Part shown: piece after piece, positions 6,579 through 58,519 of the stretch
Layout: the number at the start of each line of letters is the position of its first letter
How positions within the stretch are numbered: the stretch's first letter is position 1
Source of the DNA: Vampirovibrionaceae bacterium NZW_1234
GTDB taxonomy: Bacteria; Cyanobacteriota; Vampirovibrionia; Vampirovibrionales; JAGQHJ01
Assembly: GCA_041697335.1 (NCBI GenBank)
Contig: JBGUGD010000023.1
Coordinates: 64,001 to 128,000, forward strand
Length of the DNA stretch: 64,000 nt
Reading direction: 5' to 3'
Position numbers and translations under genes: made by a program
Notes under the pieces: generated by a model
Seen by the model: the letters and a program-made list of their open reading frames with translations, nothing else
Told to the model about the DNA's origin: nothing
Database searches by the model: none

Positions 6579-8582
6579 GTGGGATACGGTCCTACTAATT
6601 ATGCGAATAATTTGCAGCAGCAGGTGAACAATTCGTTCCAGCAGCAGCGGCAAAGAATGATGAACCCGGCTCTGACTGGAGTAAGTTCCGATCAGCAGCT
6701 CAGTGCTCTTCAGTTGGCTGGTTTAGCACCGGGTGGGACAGTATTAGGCGATAATAGGCGCATTGCCGGAATTAGCATGGATTACCTGGGCCTGCCCCGG
6801 AATCCCATGGATCCGAATTCCATTATTGCGAATTTTGACCGCAATTATGGGCAAAACATCTTCTCGTACGCAACCGCATTGGGTGGCCCCAATAGCCTGG
6901 CGTCTCAACTCGATCGATCGTATCGGGAAGCCTTGGCCAAACAACAAGGCCGTCCACCATTTATGCCCATGCCCGGTGGTATGCAAGGGGGCTTCCCACA
7001 GCAAGGGTTCCCCGGCGGCTTTCCGCCTCAAGGCTTGCCTCCTGGCTACGGGTTTCCGCAACAAGGTTTACAGGGTGGTTTCCCGCCTCAGGGAGCCTTC
7101 CCGCAACAGGCTGGGTTTATGCAGCCGGGTTTCGCCCCAGGGCAACAAGTTCCCAATCCGTTTGGTCAGACAGGTAATAATATTAATGCCTTGCCGCAGG
7201 CGTCTAATCCATTCCAGCAGGTTCAAGCCGGTGGACAGATTCCAGGGCAGATAGGCCAGGTTCAAGGTATTGCCGGTGCAGTGGGTGCTGCCGCAGCGGG
7301 TGCAGTCGGTGCGGCCGGGGCGATGGATCCAATGACGATTATTATTCTGTTCCTGGTTCTGGCTCAGCTTACAAAAGGTAAGAAGGAACCTCCCATCCCA
7401 TTTGAAGGCTTCGAACTGGATAAGATCCTGAAAGCCATCAATGTTCAGGTGCCGGTGGACGCCAAGGACAGAGAAAAATTTGACGTCATCATCATTAACG
7501 AGCATAAACTCGATGCCCTGATGACTCGACTCGCCATTGATCCGGAAGATTATATTGAGCTTGAAAACAAGATTAACGCTGTCTTCGAGCGAGAGACAAT
7601 CGTTGATACCTATTTGACGGAATTTGGTTTCAATCCGCAGAATTACCTCTACGATATTGCCGGTAAGCTCGGCGCTCTGGAAACCAAGCAAAATCAGATC
7701 AACTTCCTGTATGCCAACATCGAATCCGACCCACCGGCTAACATTAACCTGATGGGTAAGCTGGACAAGTTGGCCGAGAGCAAGGAAGAACTTCGAGAGC
7801 TTGCAGCCCTGGTTGAATTAGATCCGCCGGAAAATGCCAAGCTGCCGGAATTCTATACGGCCTTGTTCAACAAATCCTTGGAATTGAACGGTTGGCTTAG
7901 CGAGTTTGGTTTGCCGGCACCGGCTGCCAATGCCACAATCCAAGACAAGCTGACCAGTCTGGAATCAGCACGGGCTGAAATGGATTACCTGTTGGTCAAT
8001 TTGGGACTGGATCCCGATGACTACGACTCCATTTATAAAGCTGCCAGAGCTGTTATTCAGAAAGAGGCCGATATTAATGCGTTGCTGATAAAAGCACAAC
8101 TGCAACCGGGTAATTACCAGACCATCGCCGATAAATACGACGCCCTGGTCAATAAGGAACTCGAGATCGATAGCAGTGGTCTGCTTGATGACTACGGTAT
8201 GGATGTCTCCGATGATGCCAGCTTGGCCGATAAACTCACGATGATTAAACAGGGCCGTACCGAAATCGAATTCCTGTTCCTCAACCTGGGCCTTGATCCG
8301 GCCGACTTTGATGGCGATCTCGACATCTTCAGTGAGATCCTGATCTATGGCGACGAGATCGATCAATTGCTGGAAGAGACGGCTGGCCTTGATGATGAGC
8401 CTGTTCCTCCGAATGCCACCTTGCGTGACAAGTTCAACATCCTGAAGGCTCGAGATGAGATGCTGACAGAGATATTGGAATCGCTGGATGAGGATCCTGC
8501 CGAATATCCCACCATCAAAGACAAGTTAGAGTTTCTGGAAGAATTGGCCGAGGAATTGCCGGAGGATGAACCTGAGTTCTAA
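6579..8582 (+). CDS. hypothetical protein: Q/G/P-rich N-terminal region, hydrophobic helix, ~11 acidic ~31-aa repeats
   Basis: 667-aa ORF; GFPQQ/GFPPQ repeats; TIIILFLVLA; recurring LxxxGLDPxxY....DKL units. Confidence 0.88.
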   Translation: MGYGPTNYANNLQQQVNNSFQQQRQRMMNPALTGVSSDQQLSALQLAGLAPGGTVLGDNRRIAGISMDYLGLPRNPMDPNSIIANFDRNYGQNIFSYATALGGPNSLASQLDRSYREALAKQQGRPPFMPMPGGMQGGFPQQGFPGGFPPQGLPPGYGFPQQGLQGGFPPQGAFPQQAGFMQPGFAPGQQVPNPFGQTGNNINALPQASNPFQQVQAGGQIPGQIGQVQGIAGAVGAAAAGAVGAAGAMDPMTIIILFLVLAQLTKGKKEPPIPFEGFELDKILKAINVQVPVDAKDREKFDVIIINEHKLDALMTRLAIDPEDYIELENKINAVFERETIVDTYLTEFGFNPQNYLYDIAGKLGALETKQNQINFLYANIESDPPANINLMGKLDKLAESKEELRELAALVELDPPENAKLPEFYTALFNKSLELNGWLSEFGLPAPAANATIQDKLTSLESARAEMDYLLVNLGLDPDDYDSIYKAARAVIQKEADINALLIKAQLQPGNYQTIADKYDALVNKELEIDSSGLLDDYGMDVSDDASLADKLTMIKQGRTEIEFLFLNLGLDPADFDGDLDIFSEILIYGDEIDQLLEETAGLDDEPVPPNATLRDKFNILKARDEMLTEILESLDEDPAEYPTIKDKLEFLEELAEELPEDEPEF

Positions 8583-8665: not shown

Positions 8666-9895
8666 ATGTATACTCAGCCCAACTTTACATTAACCCCACA
8701 AGGAGCACAGCCCGGCATGCTGGGTGCTGCTAACCTGGGTGTGGGCGCCATGAATACAAATGGCCTCACCATGGCCTACGGTCAAAACCTTTATGGCAAT
8801 GTCGCCAATTGGGGCGCTGCGTCACCGGGTATGGTGGCCCAGCCAGGCTGGTCGGACTTACAGACAATGCAAGGTGGGTCGCCATCGACCTTTGGCATGG
8901 CCGCATATCCTGCGGCACAACCCTTGGGTGGGGGCGATATCATGAGCAGTCTGACCGGTGCCGTCAATGTTCAACCCAACAGTTTTCTGGATATTGCCGG
9001 GATTGTCGGGGCGCAACAATCGGCGGCCCTGTTTAATCAGATGCCGCAGATGAACCCTATGGGCAATTTAATGAACCCCTCCGGGATGATGCCGGTTATG
9101 TATGCGATGCCACAAGTCACGCAGCCAATGATGACACCGCAGATGATGATGCCCCAGATGATGCCAATGCCCATGATGCCGCAATTTCAGTTTATGCCTG
9201 GGGCTCCCATGATGACCATGCCCTTTGGCATGTCTCCTCCCACAACAAACACCGCGGTTGATTCGGCGGCGATTGGGGCGGCAGCAATTTTGGCTGCTTT
9301 AAAAGGAGCTGCCGATGGCGGATCTTCATCGAAATCAACCAAGACCTTTGAGAACGCCGCATCCGGAACGAATACTCCGGCTACGGAAAACACCACAATT
9401 ACGGATAACAATCAGTCGCAACAGGCTGTCATCAACAGTCTGAACCAGCGAGTGGGTCAGTTGGAATCGCAATTGGCACAATCCCAAACGCAACTAACTC
9501 AGGCTCAGGCCCAGTTGGCCCAGTTGCAGCAATCACAACAGAATCAATCGCAGACGGGTACCAATTCCACGCAAACCAACACGACCCAGACCAATAACAC
9601 CCAGACAGAAACGACTCAAACCGGTAATACCCAGACAGAAACCACAGAAACCAACGCACAGACGGGAACGGGGGCAACCCAGACCGGCAACCAAACCCCA
9701 TCTGGAGAAACGGGTCAAACCCAAGCTTCGTCCGGAGGAACTCAAACGACACAAGAGGCCTCCCAGGAAAATAATACATCGACCCAACAAACTCAGGAAT
9801 CCAATGCCATTGATGATATGAGCAATGCCGTCAACGCGATGCTCGACAATCTGGATGATTGGACAAATGATGACTCGGAAGTGATTGAGGCATAA
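8666..9895 (+). CDS. hypothetical low-complexity protein (M/P/Q-rich, coiled coil, TQTxx repeats)
   Basis: 409-aa ORF 83 bp downstream of the previous gene, same strand. Confidence 0.85.
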   Translation: MYTQPNFTLTPQGAQPGMLGAANLGVGAMNTNGLTMAYGQNLYGNVANWGAASPGMVAQPGWSDLQTMQGGSPSTFGMAAYPAAQPLGGGDIMSSLTGAVNVQPNSFLDIAGIVGAQQSAALFNQMPQMNPMGNLMNPSGMMPVMYAMPQVTQPMMTPQMMMPQMMPMPMMPQFQFMPGAPMMTMPFGMSPPTTNTAVDSAAIGAAAILAALKGAADGGSSSKSTKTFENAASGTNTPATENTTITDNNQSQQAVINSLNQRVGQLESQLAQSQTQLTQAQAQLAQLQQSQQNQSQTGTNSTQTNTTQTNNTQTETTQTGNTQTETTETNAQTGTGATQTGNQTPSGETGQTQASSGGTQTTQEASQENNTSTQQTQESNAIDDMSNAVNAMLDNLDDWTNDDSEVIEA

Positions 9896-9910
9896 TCGCT
9901 TCATTCAAAG

Positions 9911-10980
9911 GCGGATACTATTGGAAAACCAGAGAGAGAGAGAGTAGACAGCAAAGAGAATAAGAAGAAACAGAAGAAGAGATTGAGAGAATGAATGAAT
10001 GTAGCGAGTAGAAGGTAAAACGTCGAGAAGCGAGTTAAATGTAGGATTGGAAAACAAGAACGTAGGAAAACAAGATCGTAGGAACCTGTTGGAAAACCAG
10101 AGAGAGAACAAAGAACGAAGAAGAAAACGAAGAAGAGAAGAGACCCTAGGAAGAAAGTAGCGAGAGAAAGAGAGAAGAAACAATCAAGGCGATGAAAGAA
10201 GAAAAACAACATCAATAATTAAGGCACGTGTAGGAATGAAAGTAGGAACGGTGAATCGGAAAACAAGAACGTAGGAAACACCCAGTGCTGGGAGACAAAA
10301 GACGAAGAAGAGAGAGAGACGGAAGAGAGAGCGAAAGAGAGAGAGAGAGAAGGAAGAAACATATGAGTGCAAGAGGCGGTAGCGTGACAGAGGAGAGGAA
10401 CTCTCGGAGAGCATCCCAAAGATGCATTCCGATCGCAGGTTATGGTCAATCGACCGGGGCGGTTTCGCTTACGATTCCCTTGGATAGACCTCCATATGGA
10501 TGGTGGGGACTATCCAAAAATGATAGTAACCCAGAGAAAGAGAAGATGATGCAAGAACCAGTCACCTTTGACCGTCATGAATCCACGGAAAACATGGATA
10601 CGTCAATGCACTATGAACCGGACTTCACACCCCAGGGGCCGAATCCTGGATGGATGACCATGGCCTCTCACGCTGTGCCGTTTCTTGGCAGTTCAATCTG
10701 ATCATCAGATCAGGCGTGTTTTTCTGAGTCCTGCATCAGAAACCGGATTTATTGGAAAACAACACCCCACTTCGAAGGAGAACCTGACCCGAGAAAGATG
10801 AAGAGAGAGAAAAAACGAGAAAGAGAGAAACCAACACAATCGGAGAACATAAAAGCGCAGTTGAACCAATCATCTGTAGCGTGACTACGAGAGGATAAAG
10901 GAGAGAGGAAAACCCATGCCCTGCCGATGCGGCAGCGTGGCTTGGTCGAAAGAGGAGAGAGAGGAAACCTGAACCATAAA
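9911..10980. repeat. purine-rich degenerate repeat region
   Basis: Recurring TTGGAAAAC (9921, 10047, 10089, 10753), GGAAAACAAGAACGTAGGAAA (10049, 10258), GTAGCG (10001, 10157, 10379, 10876) and long GA tracts. Confidence 0.75.
10546..10701 (+). CDS. possible 51-aa peptide (MMQEPVTFDR...PFLGSSI)
   Basis: Ordinary-composition ORF between purine tracts; hairpin CTGATC-ATCA-GATCAG at the stop. Confidence 0.35.
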   Translation: MMQEPVTFDRHESTENMDTSMHYEPDFTPQGPNPGWMTMASHAVPFLGSSI

Positions 10981-11052
10981 TAGCCACGTCTCAAGGCTTT
11001 GGTCTACCCGATCATGTTTGAGACGGTTATTGAAGCAAAACCATCACCACAG

Positions 11053-11559
11053 AAAGGAGGCCTTATCGAGCAAACTCGACCGGATAAAGACACAATTACA
11101 CTCTGATAAGAACGGATTATTCTTCCCATTGCGGTACGTCTTTTTGCCAGCCGAAAGGAGGTCCTATCGAATAAATTCGGCCCAGAGTATCATCAATCAC
11201 TCTCAAAACAGGAATTATTCTTCATTGATGTATTGTGTCCACCCAAAACAAAAAGGAGGTCTTATCGAGTAGACTCAGATGACGTCTTATAATGACGCTC
11301 TATAACGGAATTATTCTTCACATTCATGTCCCGACAATCCAACCGAAAGGAGGTCCTACCCCGAGAAAAAAATGACTCTAACATCTACACTACGCTCTTA
11401 AATAAAACGGATTATTCTTCAAAACCCAACGTCACATCCCCACAACCAAAAAGGAGGCCCATCCCCTAGAAAAAAGACTCTAACATCTACACTACGCTCT
11501 TAAATAAAACGGATTATTCTTCAAAACCCAACGTTACATCCCCACAACCGGAAAGGAGG
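11053..11559. repeat. ~100-bp tandem array with two alternating conserved boxes
   Basis: AAAGGAGG at 11053, 11154, 11252, 11346, 11450, 11552; GGA(A)TTATTCTTC at 11114, 11211, 11307, 11409, 11511. Confidence 0.92.
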
Positions 11560-11704
11560 ACAATCACCCAGAAAGAGAGAGAGAGAAAAGACGAAGGACT
11601 TTATTCACGATAAGCGAAGAGAAAAGGAAAGCGAAGAGAGAGAAAAACGAAGAAGAGAAGAAGAAGAAGAGATAACGCGAAGAGAACAGATCCAAGAGGA
11701 TCCA

Positions 11705-12880
11705 TTACGAAGAAAAGCTTTCCTCCATTAATTCACACAGTGTTTTATACACGTAGAGAGACGCCGGCTGTTGCCCAAGCGTCTCTTTTATTTTGCCAAG
11801 CTCCTGGTCGGCCAGTTCTCTCTCAGGGCTGGGCTTAAGGTAGGGGCCAATGGCTTTGGCATAGTTTTCCGGCGTTACGTCGGCCATCATCAACTCCGGG
11901 AGGAAGCCCTCCGGGCGTTCGGACAGAATGTTCGGCAGCCCGATGTGAGTGACATATTTAAAATGCTTGAAGAACCAGTAGGCGATCGCCGACAGTTTGT
12001 AGGAAATCACCGATGGGGTTCCGTATAGCGCAGCTTCCAGGGTAATGGTTCCGGAGGCGGCCAGAATGGCCTCAGATAATGCCAGAATAGCCTCGTTGCG
12101 TCGCTCGATAATCTGGAAGGAAACGCCTTTCAGGGTATTTGTGTATGGGGCCATGGTGGCGTCCAGGAATTCCTGGGTAATTGCCGGTGACTTGGCCAGC
12201 AAAAACTGGAAGTCCTGTTGATGCTGCTGGTTGATGCGAGGAAGGGCTTCCAGCATGGGAGGCAGAAGACTCCGAATCTCCATTCGGCGGGAACCGGGGA
12301 AAATGCCGATAATCGGCTTTTCCGGATCCAGGCCGAATTCGTTACAGAATTTCAACCGGTCCGGTGGCGGTGCCATGGCTTCGGCCAGGGGGTGGCCCAC
12401 AAAAGTGGCCGGGATGGCCTGGGCGTCGTAAATGGGCTTTTCAAAGGGGAAAATACAGAAGACATGATCCACGTATTTCTTGATGCTCTTCAAACGCCAG
12501 CGCTTGGAGGCCCAGACCTGGGGCGGGATATAGTAGAACACGGGAATACCCAGGGCCTTGAGACGCTTGGCCAGATGCAGGTGAAACATGCCATAGTCAA
12601 TCAGCAGAACGGCATCGGGCCGCCACGCGTGTGTGAAATGCCGGATCAGATCATTGGCCAGACGCAGGTGATAAGGAATCGCACCCAGGAACCCGATGCC
12701 AAGCACACCGAGCTTTTCCTGGCGATGAAAGAGGGTTACCCCGGTTTCTTCGATAAACGTGCCGCCAATGGCCTGTATTTCCACATCGGGGCGGTGTGTC
12801 TGAAACTGTCGAATGACACGGGCACCATGCACATCTCCGGATGCATCACCGGTGCTTACAAAGAGTCGTTTGAAGCTCAT
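11705..12880 (-). CDS. lpxB: lipid-A-disaccharide synthase
   Basis: STGDASGD, YYIPPQVWA, IFPFE, FVGHPL, FPGSR and ASGTITLE motifs; ATGA overlap with upstream gene. Confidence 0.95.
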   Translation of the reverse strand: MSFKRLFVSTGDASGDVHGARVIRQFQTHRPDVEIQAIGGTFIEETGVTLFHRQEKLGVLGIGFLGAIPYHLRLANDLIRHFTHAWRPDAVLLIDYGMFHLHLAKRLKALGIPVFYYIPPQVWASKRWRLKSIKKYVDHVFCIFPFEKPIYDAQAIPATFVGHPLAEAMAPPPDRLKFCNEFGLDPEKPIIGIFPGSRRMEIRSLLPPMLEALPRINQQHQQDFQFLLAKSPAITQEFLDATMAPYTNTLKGVSFQIIERRNEAILALSEAILAASGTITLEAALYGTPSVISYKLSAIAYWFFKHFKYVTHIGLPNILSERPEGFLPELMMADVTPENYAKAIGPYLKPSPERELADQELGKIKETLGQQPASLYVYKTLCELMEESFSS

Positions 12881-13764
12881 AAGGCAAGAAAGGTCATGTG
12901 CCACTGATCGGCCAACCGAGTCATTTTGGGCAGATCCAGAACCAGGGTTTTGTGTGCCTCCACCGCCAGCACTTTCAGCCCGGCCTTACGCATGGAGACC
13001 AGGGTCCGGGGGCCGACCGTGGGGACATCAAAACGCTGATCCTGGCCGGGCTTTTCCACTTTGGCCACCACGCCCCCTTTTTTACCGGTCCACTTGCCGG
13101 AGCGTCGAATGGCCTGGTCGGTGCCTTCAATGGCTTCCACGGCTATTACCATGCCGTTATGGACAATTACGGTCTGCCCGATATCCAGGCGGCCCATTTC
13201 CCGAGCCGTGGTCAGAGCAAACTTGATATCGTCCGCCTCTTTATCCGAAGGCGGCCGCTGACTGTACTGCCCGGGTGGGATGAGTGCCGAAGTCAGGTAG
13301 TGGGTCTGAGGGAGGACTAAAATGCCCTCTTGTTCTTCAAACTCCCGAATAATCATCAGCATCACGTTATCGTCGTTCAGCTGACGGCTTTGCCGAAACA
13401 AGGCCATCGCCCGGGCATCCAGAACCGGGTGCCGGAGCAGGACCCACTTGTTGACTTTGCCCCCAAAGACCGCATGGGTCAGGCCGTGCTCATGCATGAG
13501 ACGGAAGTTTTTATTCAGGAGCCCGGGCTTGGTGGGATGGACCCGGTTGGCGGGCAGACGTTTACGAAAGGCACTGACGTTGCCGGGATCCATGGCATAC
13601 ACAAACACGGTCAATCCTTGCGAGAGCATCGTTTCAAGCATCATTACCGGCAGTTCGCCTTCACCGGCAACCAGGCCGACAATGGCAGTATTGGGGTCCA
13701 GGCGGGTATCGGCAGGCATGGCAGTCGCGTTTTCTGTCAGCATTTCAGAGGGCATGGTGTTCAT
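12877..13764 (-). CDS. lpxI: UDP-2,3-diacylglucosamine diphosphatase LpxI (DUF1009 family)
   Basis: GLVAGEGELP, LDIGQTV, AVEAIEGTD and DQRFDVPTVG motifs; adjacent to lpxB. Confidence 0.92.
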   Translation of the reverse strand: MNTMPSEMLTENATAMPADTRLDPNTAIVGLVAGEGELPVMMLETMLSQGLTVFVYAMDPGNVSAFRKRLPANRVHPTKPGLLNKNFRLMHEHGLTHAVFGGKVNKWVLLRHPVLDARAMALFRQSRQLNDDNVMLMIIREFEEQEGILVLPQTHYLTSALIPPGQYSQRPPSDKEADDIKFALTTAREMGRLDIGQTVIVHNGMVIAVEAIEGTDQAIRRSGKWTGKKGGVVAKVEKPGQDQRFDVPTVGPRTLVSMRKAGLKVLAVEAHKTLVLDLPKMTRLADQWHMTFLAL

Positions 13765-58182: not shown

Positions 58183-58519
58183 TTGCTCATTTTTGCTCAG
58201 GGTGACTTTGTTTTTGGTTTTTTGCCTCGTTTTTACTCAAAAATTACTCAGGGATTGAGTTGTTTTTTACCCAAAATTACTCAGGGCTTGAGTTATTTTT
58301 GTTGTTTTTTACTCAAAATTACTCAGGGCTTGAGGTATTTTTGTTGTTTTTTACTCAGAATTACTCAGGAATTGAGGTTTTTTGTTGTTTTTACTCGAAA
58401 TTACTCAGGGAGGTGGGGTTTTTGGTTTGTTTTTTACTCAAATTGACTCAGGATGTTGATTTTTTTACTCAGTTTTACTCAGGTTGTTGTTTTGGTTCAG
58501 GGTTACTCACCGATACTCA
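58183..58519. repeat. tandem array of TTACTCA heptamer pairs (~42-bp unit)
   Basis: Nine heptamer pairs separated by T tracts; unit TTTTTACTCAAAATTACTCAGGGCTTGAG. Confidence 0.92.

What the first reader, a model, noticed from the sequence alone, without database searches (positions are those of the whole stretch)
11053..11559. ~100-bp array alternating orphan Shine-Dalgarno boxes with a second conserved box
Seen: six AAAGGAGG boxes spaced 101, 98, 94, 104 and 102 bp apart, alternating with five GGA(A)TTATTCTTC boxes. Each GGA(A)TTATTCTTC box is preceded by C(A/G)CTCT and followed by a 26-29 nt variable segment before the next SD box. Units 1-3 carry a small hairpin of differing sequence just after the SD box (TCGAG-caaa-CTCGA, CGAAT-aa-ATTCG, GAGT-ag-ACTC), hinting at conserved structure. 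The last two units are near-identical, so the array looks recently expanded. No ATG/GTG/TTG lies at initiation distance; instead ATC follows 3-4 nt later in 5 of 6 units, three of them as ATC-NNN-stop. Known: AAAGGAGG(T) is complementary to the 16S rRNA 3' end; GGA motifs are the CsrA/RsmA ligand; dual-box arrays with variable spacers are the layout of TIGR guide arrays, whose units are much shorter. Inference: an undescribed repetitive ncRNA, either a 30S/RNA-binding-protein sponge or a precursor processed into ~100-nt units. No cas, Nop-domain or toxin gene is recognisable nearby.
Basis: partly seen in the sequence, partly recalled or inferred. Interest (0 to 1): 0.85.

Follow-up and report, generated by a model that had tools for sequence, protein, structure and literature searches.

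The report
Tandem start-less ribosome-site repeat array
In an uncultured, flagellated relative of cyanobacteria, a ~100-base repeat keeps an unusually strong ribosome-binding site with no gene behind it, plus a second fixed motif, and it may be an RNA decoy for the translation repressor CsrA, although no transcript has been shown.

Summary
Six AAAGGAGG boxes alternate with five GG(A)ATTATTCTTC boxes, the only five in the 3.7-Mb genome. They lie in its longest convergent gap, between an orphan gene and lpxB. The boxes are conserved far beyond neutral divergence of the units (0 of 500 simulations), and contig depth suggests about three copies of unit 4. No homologue was found, and the RNA has no stable fold. 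It is not a TIGR or CRISPR array. The genome encodes fliW-csrA and three flagellins. Ten of the array's 14 GGA are ANGGA, spaced 42-60 nt. ACGGA, in four of five second boxes, is about sevenfold enriched in this order's flagellin leaders. A strong + strand terminator follows. Best reading (0.35): a + strand non-coding RNA that titrates CsrA. Against it: GGAs are not predicted in loops, CsrA explains neither the full 8-nt SD nor the invariant AUUAUUCUUC, and no RNA data exist. Rivals: DNA satellite (0.25), 30S decoy (0.17). Earlier scan notes propose similar decoys in other genomes; none matches this sequence.

The parts
11053..11559 (+). Array of five full ~100-bp units plus a sixth SD box; units 1-4 diverged, units 4 and 5 near-identical
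   Evidence: mean pairwise unit identity 0.68
11053..11060 (+). Box A, AAAGGAGG: start-less strong SD and an ANGGA site; repeated at 11154, 11252, 11346, 11450, 11552
   Evidence: duplex with own 16S tail -12.2 to -15.9 kcal/mol, reached (<= -12) by 2.4% of 2419 gene starts
11112..11125 (+). Box B, (AC/CA)GG(A)ATTATTCTTC: ACGGA in units 1, 3, 4, 5 and CAGGA in unit 2; invariant ATTATTCTTC; GG starts at 11114, 11211, 11307, 11409, 11511
   Evidence: GGA-to-GGA spacing A to B 52-60 nt, B to A 42-44 nt
11099..11104 (+). C(A/G)CTCT motif 5-10 nt before box B; also at 11198, 11296, 11393, 11495
11374..11505 (.). Youngest unit; probably about three copies in the sampled population instead of the assembled state (inferred from depth)
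   Evidence: contig depth 12.5 vs 4.0 and 13.0 vs 4.6, against 1.28x expected from the assembly; both runs are one sample
10744..10810 (+). Degenerate upstream unit (CCGGATTTATT ... GAAGGAGAACC ... CCCGAGAAAG); a further start-less SD at 10953
   Evidence: read from the sequence (family D3); orphan-SD census
9896..11704 (.). 1.8-kb gap without a credible gene, the longest of 423 convergent gaps in the genome; purine-rich on +, 52 GGA on + and 19 on -
   Evidence: ORFs 10285-10701 and 11018-11272 have no Pfam hit, and the latter reads box B in two different frames
11755..11796 (+). Terminator-like hairpin with U-tract facing the array, lying inside the 3' end of lpxB on the other strand
   Evidence: -19.8 kcal/mol, z -4.4; a hairpin with T-tract at the same place in relative G003; not called by the simple scan
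11685..11706 (-). 9-bp hairpin right after the lpxB stop, a likely lpxB terminator, arguing against minus-strand read-through into the array
   Evidence: -9.8 kcal/mol, z -3.6; the U-tract is poor
8666..9895 (+). Upstream orphan low-complexity ORF (409 aa, Q/T/P/M-rich); possible source of read-through transcription
   Evidence: no Pfam hit, no match in 48 order genomes, no Atlas hit
11705..12904 (-). lpxB, lipid-A-disaccharide synthase, convergent; lpxI upstream
   Evidence: PF02684 E 7e-76

Best explanation
The array is part of a + strand non-coding RNA, either its own transcript or the 3' trailer of the 6579-9895 genes, ending at the hairpin at 11755-11796. It grew by tandem duplication of a ~100-nt unit that looks like a translation-initiation region without a start codon: an upstream ACGGA site followed 42-44 nt later by a strong SD that contains AAGGA. 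These are the two kinds of site that CsrA reads in flagellin leaders, and one CsrA dimer can bridge two of them. About 11 sites (more if unit 4 is triplicated) would soak up CsrA and relieve repression of flagellin translation alongside FliW. Shown: the array, the box conservation, the motif match, csrA-fliW and flagellins in the genome, and the terminator-like hairpin. Inferred: transcription, strand, CsrA binding and any effect on motility.
For: csrA next to fliW; three flagellin genes plus one weaker Flagellin_N hit; CsrA in 46 of 48 other order genomes. In 29 flagellin leaders (one per genome, SD zone excluded) 16 of 60 GGA are ACGGA, against 30 of 558 in non-coding leaders of this genome (Fisher p 9e-7; 5.3 vs 0.7 per kb; kin not independent). 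The commonest GGA hexamers in 52 leaders are AAGGAG 30, TAGGAG 16, ACGGAT 15, AAGGAT 13 and ACGGAA 12. Array: 10 of 14 GGA are ANGGA; 10 per 520 nt against a mean of 1.9, with one locus higher and one equal among 6446 overlapping non-coding windows. Spacing of 42-60 nt lies inside the 10-63 nt bridging range (PMC7652899 passages). Block conservation. Terminator on + and lpxB hairpin on -. A second cluster of five start-less SDs lies in the HDOD-fliI gap of this genome.
Against: The GGAs are not predicted to be exposed: P(unpaired) is 0.03-0.51 at 37 C against a regional mean of 0.63, and there are no CsrB-type hairpins. GGA density (14 per 520 nt) is under twice the genome mean of about 8 per 500 nt. 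The invariant bases are AAAGGAGG and ATTATTCTTC; CsrA needs neither the last GG nor UUAUUCUUC, and ACGGA itself varies in unit 2. This genome's own three flagellin leaders have ANGGA but no ACGGA within 120 nt of the start. The motif match rests on one ancestral unit, and box A was picked for being an SD. No homologue was found in 4 family or 149 class genomes, though CsrA is nearly universal in the order. No sigma70 promoter on + in the 850 nt before the array and no sigma28-like promoter; a weak terminator-like hairpin at 10697-10714 lies between the upstream gene and the array. ~100-bp repeats with an SD also occur in three class genomes with no CsrA hit. FliW systems are reported to lack antagonizing sRNAs (PMC4894983 passages).
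Confidence: 0.35

Rival explanations
1. DNA-level satellite: a species-specific non-coding tandem repeat whose short fixed motifs are binding sites for a DNA-binding or nucleoid protein (or are homogenised by gene conversion), with the SD likeness incidental.
For: Non-coding ~100-bp repeats that contain AAAGGAGG are common: 39 of 120 loci examined from a truncated GTDB scan, 17 of them with no start codon after any box. This genome has other non-coding satellites with periods of 22, 33, 41-42, 52, 62 and 83 bp. Bacillus satellites keep 2-5 short characteristic sequences (PMC8161180 passages). Growth by whole-unit duplication and probable copy-number variation. Units 2-3 hold a GAAT-N-ATTC palindrome, a pattern found non-coding in 32 of 112 genome matches against 14% non-coding DNA (the array's own copies included).
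Against: The 18 non-coding comparison arrays with 4 or more boxes are 0.82-0.99 identical between units; this one is 0.68 with two invariant blocks. Unit length varies from 94 to 104, unlike constant-period satellites. The palindrome is broken in 3 of 5 units. The box has a single locus in the genome.
Confidence: 0.25
2. 30S decoy or stabiliser: the RNA binds small ribosomal subunits through super-strong start-less SDs; box B is an AU-rich standby, S1-binding or anti-SD element, and the near ATC may allow abortive initiation.
For: All 8 SD bases are invariant in 6 of 6 copies, with 8-10 nt complementarity to the genome's 16S tail and energies in the top 2.4% of gene starts. ATC lies 3-4 nt behind in 5 of 6 units. 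RNAalifold pairs GGAGG with the UCUUC of box B in 5 of 5 units, though these pairs never vary. Only two real clusters of start-less strong SDs exist among 214 non-coding orphans (Poisson estimate 0.002 genome-wide for five in 600 nt).
Against: Six to eight sites on one RNA could hardly titrate ribosomes (inference). No RNase J C-terminal domain was found (genome 94.75% complete), so STAB-SD-type protection lacks its nuclease, and no coding sequence lies downstream to stabilise. The SDs are partly paired in the model (P unpaired 0.17-0.57).
Confidence: 0.17
3. Amplified, emptied expression cassette: each unit is a relic promoter (-10 TATTCT in box B) plus leader and SD of a lost small gene whose start codon decayed to ATC.
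For: TATTCT keeps T1, A2 and T6 of a sigma70 -10 element and lies 28-31 nt before the SD (read from the sequence); ATC follows the SD.
Against: No -35 element at constant spacing, and the promoter scan finds none on + in the array. The frames behind ATC are 13, 2, 2, 2 and 16 codons and unrelated. A relic would not keep invariant boxes.
Confidence: 0.1
4. Minus-strand tandem sRNAs with a CCUCCUUU anti-SD seed, cut from a lpxI-lpxB 3' trailer, like cuckoo RNAs.
For: The minus strand repeats CCUCCUUU, on average somewhat more open than its surroundings (0.36-0.80 against 0.44). Two weak terminator-like sites lie on -.
Against: A 9-bp hairpin follows the lpxB stop. The strand folds worse than all 100 shuffles, so the seed is not in stable hairpin loops as in cuckoo RNAs (PMC4615179 abstract). 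No Rfam match. No Hfq hit.
Confidence: 0.07
5. Guide array (TIGR- or CRISPR-like) with the 26-29 nt segments as spacers.
For: Two alternating fixed boxes, with one variable segment of tight length.
Against: The unit is ~100 nt, not ~36. There are no CCA/UG-flanked 8-12 nt spacers. No Nop, IS110 Transposase_20 or RVT_1 hit in the genome; the one Cas1 is on another contig. Segments 4 and 5 are 90% identical, so growth is by duplication. No target was found in the genome, phages (best E 7) or plasmids.
Confidence: 0.03

Closest known systems
CsrB/CsrC and RsmX/Y/Z sponge sRNAs of Gammaproteobacteria (PMC7652899, passages)
   Same: Non-coding, many repeated GGA sites of ANGGA/CAGGA type, a 3' intrinsic terminator, CsrA encoded in the genome.
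   Different: Sites lie 42-60 nt apart and not in stable hairpin loops; half are full-strength SDs; built from ~100-nt tandem units; FliW-type host; no Rfam match.
Campylobacter jejuni flaA mRNA leader, CsrA target and sponge in a FliW system (PMC4894983, passages)
   Same: An upstream ANGGA plus an ANGGA overlapping the SD; FliW-CsrA-flagellin genome.
   Different: No start codon or gene follows; multiplied in tandem; not in a flagellar locus; no conserved stem-loops.
Non-coding bacterial satellites with 52-nt or 20-21-nt repeats (PMC8161180, part 1 of 5 and passages)
   Same: Species-specific intergenic tandem repeat with short characteristic motifs and variable copy number; a sponge role is also proposed there.
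   Different: Unit is 94-104 bp and not constant, one locus only, units much more diverged.
STAB-SD of Bacillus thuringiensis cry3A mRNA (PMC4113751, passages)
   Same: Strong SD without translation start that can pair with the 16S tail.
   Different: Six or more copies, no downstream coding region, no RNase J domain found.
TIGR arrays (PMC12045711 and bioRxiv 10.64898/2026.09.09.750476, passages)
   Same: Two alternating conserved boxes with variable segments between them.
   Different: Unit length, box sequence, spacer length and the absence of a Nop-domain gene all differ.

Membership tests
Csr/Rsm sponge sRNA | Cognate CsrA in the genome | tested here: met
   PF02599 E 5e-24, next to fliW
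Csr/Rsm sponge sRNA | Many ANGGA/CAGGA sites in non-coding sequence | tested here: met
   11 of 14 GGA are ANGGA or CAGGA; among the highest non-coding windows of the genome
Csr/Rsm sponge sRNA | GGA displayed in hairpin loops | tested here: not met
   P(unpaired) below the regional mean; no consensus hairpins
Csr/Rsm sponge sRNA | Match to an Rfam CsrB/CsrC/Rsm model | tested here: not met
   5 matches with E 0.27-4.5, none of them Csr/Rsm, all below gathering score
Csr/Rsm sponge sRNA | Discrete transcript with promoter and terminator | tested here: inconclusive
   terminator-like hairpin present; no promoter found
Csr/Rsm sponge sRNA | Binds and titrates CsrA | not testable with these tools
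   needs gel shift or co-IP
TIGR-Tas | ~36-nt units with two 8-12 nt spacers between box C (CCA) and box D (UG) | tested here: not met
   units 94-104 nt, segments 26-29 and 36-39 nt; definition
TIGR-Tas | Adjacent Nop-domain Tas gene | tested here: not met
   no PF01798 or PF02371 hit in the genome; neighbours are lpxB and orphan ORFs; a remote Nop fold was not tested by structure
CRISPR array | One direct repeat with unique spacers, cas genes nearby | tested here: not met
   two boxes of 8 and 12-13 nt, segments 4 and 5 90% identical; no cas hit among 44 window ORFs scanned; Cas1 on contig C14
Cuckoo RNA (minus strand) | 2-4 hairpins, each with CCUCCUCCC in the loop | tested here: not met
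   motif is CCUCCUUU and the strand folds worse than shuffles; definition from the abstract
STAB-SD | Start-less SD pairing with the 16S tail | tested here: met
STAB-SD | Protects a downstream mRNA from RNase J1 | tested here: not met
   no gene downstream on +; no RNase_J_C hit
52-nt / 20-21-nt non-coding satellites | Constant repeat length of 52 or 20-21 nt, several families per genome | tested here: not met
   period 94-104, half-units 52-60 and 42-44; single locus

The most novel reading that the evidence does not exclude
A copy-number-variable RNA built of tandem gene-less translation-initiation regions, on which CsrA and the 30S subunit compete for the same super-strong SD while box B acts as second CsrA site and anti-SD. 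It would be a tandem-array decoy that tunes free CsrA in a FliW-type system, with a second, unrelated multi-SD RNA beside fliI in the same genome.
Probability: 0.15. Interest if true: 0.75.

Novelty: new variant of a known kind. Interest (0 to 1): 0.42.

Why it matters
CsrA sponges are established in Gammaproteobacteria, while FliW-bearing bacteria are reported to use protein control or the flagellin mRNA itself (PMC7652899, PMC4894983 passages). A dedicated decoy made of repeated gene-less initiation regions would show RNA titration arising anew by tandem duplication in a FliW system. It would lie in Melainabacteria, for which a search for 'CsrA' with 'Melainabacteria' listed one unrelated paper. 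If the 30S reading holds, it would be a natural multi-site ribosome decoy; one literature search listed no such case among 12 of 78 titles. The element is confined to one genome so far, which limits its weight.

Tried and rejected
Expression: no RNA holder listed, so no evidence either way. Homologue searches without result: DNA search of 4 family genomes (best E 0.76); lpxB flanks of 3 family relatives read by eye; two-box pattern in metagenomes (75 loci, all single matches) and viral contigs (19 single matches), of which one had further box-like copies, inside an open frame; sequence-only model R1 on 149 class genomes (16 with weak hits, best E 0.011) and 4 family genomes (best E 0.027); triple-SD pattern at ~100 bp in 0 of 48 other order genomes and 6 of 352 other class genomes, those read being unrelated in sequence; triple-SD at 42-72 bp in 3 of 49 order genomes (one locus read, two judged from the listed match, none alike); phages best E 7; plasmids none; earlier scan notes none by sequence or place. 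Structure: whole array z +1.59 (+) and +3.06 (-); consensus energies -0.13 and -1.17 kcal/mol. A box-B-like hit at C14:35669 lies in a coding frame. The first neutral simulation had too little invariance (25 against 33) and was redone. Purine tracts show no orientation rule relative to flanking genes, so they do not fix the strand. No Rho hit, so a rut-site reading was dropped. The C2 multi-SD gap is not conserved behind fliI or the HDOD gene in 29 relatives each (some flanks short) and aligns poorly with the array. Holes in contig cover were not used as evidence. No closer relative than another genus was available, so conservation between species could not be tested.

Full report
Observation. 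Six AAAGGAGG boxes (box A) start at 11053, 11154, 11252, 11346, 11450 and 11552. Five GGA(A)TTATTCTTC boxes (box B) start at 11114, 11211, 11307, 11409 and 11511, each preceded by C(A/G)CTCT. These are the only five B boxes in the 3.7-Mb genome, and a profile of the unit finds no other locus (best E 0.86). No ATG, GTG or TTG lies 2-12 nt after any A box. ATC follows at 3-4 nt in five of six, opening frames of 13, 2, 2, 2 and 16 codons. The small hairpins of units 1-3 appear in the predicted folds with 4-nt loops, are missing in units 4-5, and no unit folds better than its shuffles.

More than chance. Among the four independent units, 33 of 114 columns are invariant, with runs of 10 (ATTATTCTTC) and 8 (AAAGGAGG). 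No column permutation of 200,000 and no neutral simulation of 500 with a mean of 36 invariant columns gave both runs. The boxes are therefore held by selection or by patchy gene conversion. Public contigs match the assembly without a difference over 10501-11403 in one run, possibly the source sample, and over 10565-11077 and 11082-11265 in a second sample. The contig 11374-11505 has 3.1 and 2.8 times the flanking depth in two runs of one sample, against 1.28 expected (rough Poisson p 1e-4 and 4e-4). I infer about three copies of unit 4 in that population.

Setting. The genome belongs to the class that holds Obscuribacterales, that is Melainabacteria/Vampirovibrionia (class name recalled). Its DNA holders are hot-spring and microbial-mat metagenomes. 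The array sits in the longest of 423 convergent gaps, between an orphan low-complexity ORF (8666-9895, +) and lpxB (11705-12904, -). The gap is purine-rich on + and built of related modules; a degenerate unit lies near 10744-10810 and two more start-less SDs at 10776 and 10953. A hairpin of -19.8 kcal/mol with a U-tract lies on + at 11755-11796, inside the lpxB tail (z -4.4), and relative G003 has a hairpin with T-tract at the same place. A 9-bp hairpin follows the lpxB stop on -. Both favour the + strand, weakly. No promoter was found before the array, and a weak terminator-like site at 10697-10714 lies upstream.

Candidate partners. The genome has csrA next to fliW and three flagellin genes. 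It has no hit for Nop, IS110 Transposase_20, RVT_1, Hfq, Rho or RNase_J_C (completeness 94.75%). Its one Cas1 is on another contig. CsrA occurs in 46 of 48 other order genomes. To learn which GGA context this lineage uses, I took 52 flagellin leaders from 30 fetched loci. The commonest hexamers are AAGGAG, TAGGAG, ACGGAT, AAGGAT and ACGGAA. Outside the SD zone, 16 of 60 GGA are ACGGA with one leader per genome, against 30 of 558 in non-coding leaders of this genome (p 9e-7; related genomes overstate it). The array carries AAGGAG six times, ACGGAT three times, ACGGAA once and CAGGAA once. It holds 10 ANGGA in 520 nt against a non-coding mean of 1.9. Site spacing alternates 52-60 and 42-44 nt, inside the 10-63 nt range that one CsrA dimer bridges (PMC7652899, passages).

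Mechanism. I commit to a + strand non-coding RNA that titrates CsrA (0.35). Each unit resembles a flagellin-type initiation region, an upstream ACGGA plus an SD-embedded AAGGA, with no gene behind it. The precedent in a FliW system is the C. jejuni flaA leader (PMC4894983, passages). Shown are the anatomy, the conservation, the motif match and the partner genes. Transcription, strand, binding and phenotype are inferred.

Evidence against is substantial. The GGAs are predicted less open than their surroundings. There is no consensus fold. The invariant bases go beyond what CsrA reads. This genome's own flagellin leaders lack ACGGA near the start. The match rests on one ancestral unit. No relative carries the element. 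Three class genomes with ~100-bp SD-containing repeats have no CsrA hit.

Rivals. A DNA satellite (0.25) is plausible. The 18 of those with four or more boxes are 0.82-0.99 identical between units, however, against 0.68 here. A 30S decoy (0.17) explains the full SD best: duplex energies of -12.2 to -15.9 kcal/mol are reached by 2.4% of 2419 gene starts, and box B's UCUUC can pair with GGAGG in all five units, though invariant pairs prove nothing. STAB-SD-type protection (PMC4113751, passages) lacks both a downstream gene and RNase J. An emptied promoter-leader cassette (0.10), minus-strand anti-SD sRNAs (0.07) and a guide array (0.03) fit worse. The variable segments have no target in the genome, phages or plasmids and the TIGR criteria fail. 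About 0.03 is left for readings not listed.

A second locus. A census of start-less strong SDs in non-coding DNA found 214. Only two real clusters exist: this array and five boxes in the convergent gap between an HDOD gene and fliI on contig C2; a third, trivial cluster counts two overlapping sites. The C2 cluster is unlikely by chance (about 0.002), aligns poorly with the array and is not found at the matching places in 29 relatives. It hints that this genome favours multi-SD trailers, which suits the CsrA and 30S readings equally.

Verdict. A real, selected, so far single-genome element that works most plausibly like a CsrA sponge but is not a member of the CsrB/Rsm families. It is a new variant of a known kind. 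Interest is 0.42: unusual anatomy and a cheap test, but no transcript, no homologue and no structure. Earlier scan notes describe comparable candidate decoys in other genomes; they are unchecked, share no sequence with this one and are not counted as support. No supplements were read.

Noticed in passing
G000:C2:179260-179935 (L324:3761-4436): Second cluster of five start-less strong SDs plus further TAGGA/AAGGA sites in the convergent gap between an HDOD gene and fliI; partly duplicated; not seen at the matching places in relatives.
   Followed up: partly
window 9896-10400: Purine-rich modules repeating GTAGGA and TTGGAAAAC; the densest GTAGGA cluster in the genome, but only 2 of 17 GGA are ANGGA.
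   Followed up: partly
G000:C26:161950-162200, minus strand: The first flagellin gene has a ~250-nt upstream region with a run of closely spaced GGA (ACAGGA, AAGGA, TTGGA), a likely CsrA target or built-in sponge.
   Followed up: partly
G000:C14:31850-32400 (L325): Non-coding window with the highest ANGGA count of the genome (11 per 520 nt), about 13 GGA in 150 nt.
   Followed up: no
window 11755-11796 and L003:2591-2660: An antisense terminator-like hairpin is embedded in the lpxB 3' coding region in this genome and in G003, with different sequence.
   Followed up: partly
G000 C5:216161, C10:207214, C14:95941, C21:39970, C23:105456; window 58231-58481: Family of non-coding satellites sharing a TTTTACTCA-like core with periods of 41-42, 52, 62 and 83 bp; a second family with CGCGTGA and periods of 22 and 33 bp.
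   Followed up: no
L176 / G223:C2:1488840, G194:C3:891189, G217:C48:35224: Homogeneous ~100-bp tandem repeats containing AAGGAGG in three genomes of another family with no CsrA hit; unrelated in sequence to this array.
   Followed up: partly
G000:C14:90767-92315: 66-bp-period repeat next to cas1, a probable short CRISPR array.
   Followed up: no
window 6579-8582 and 8666-9895: Two consecutive orphan ORFs rich in Q, P, G, M and T with no Pfam hit; the second has no match in 48 order genomes.
   Followed up: partly
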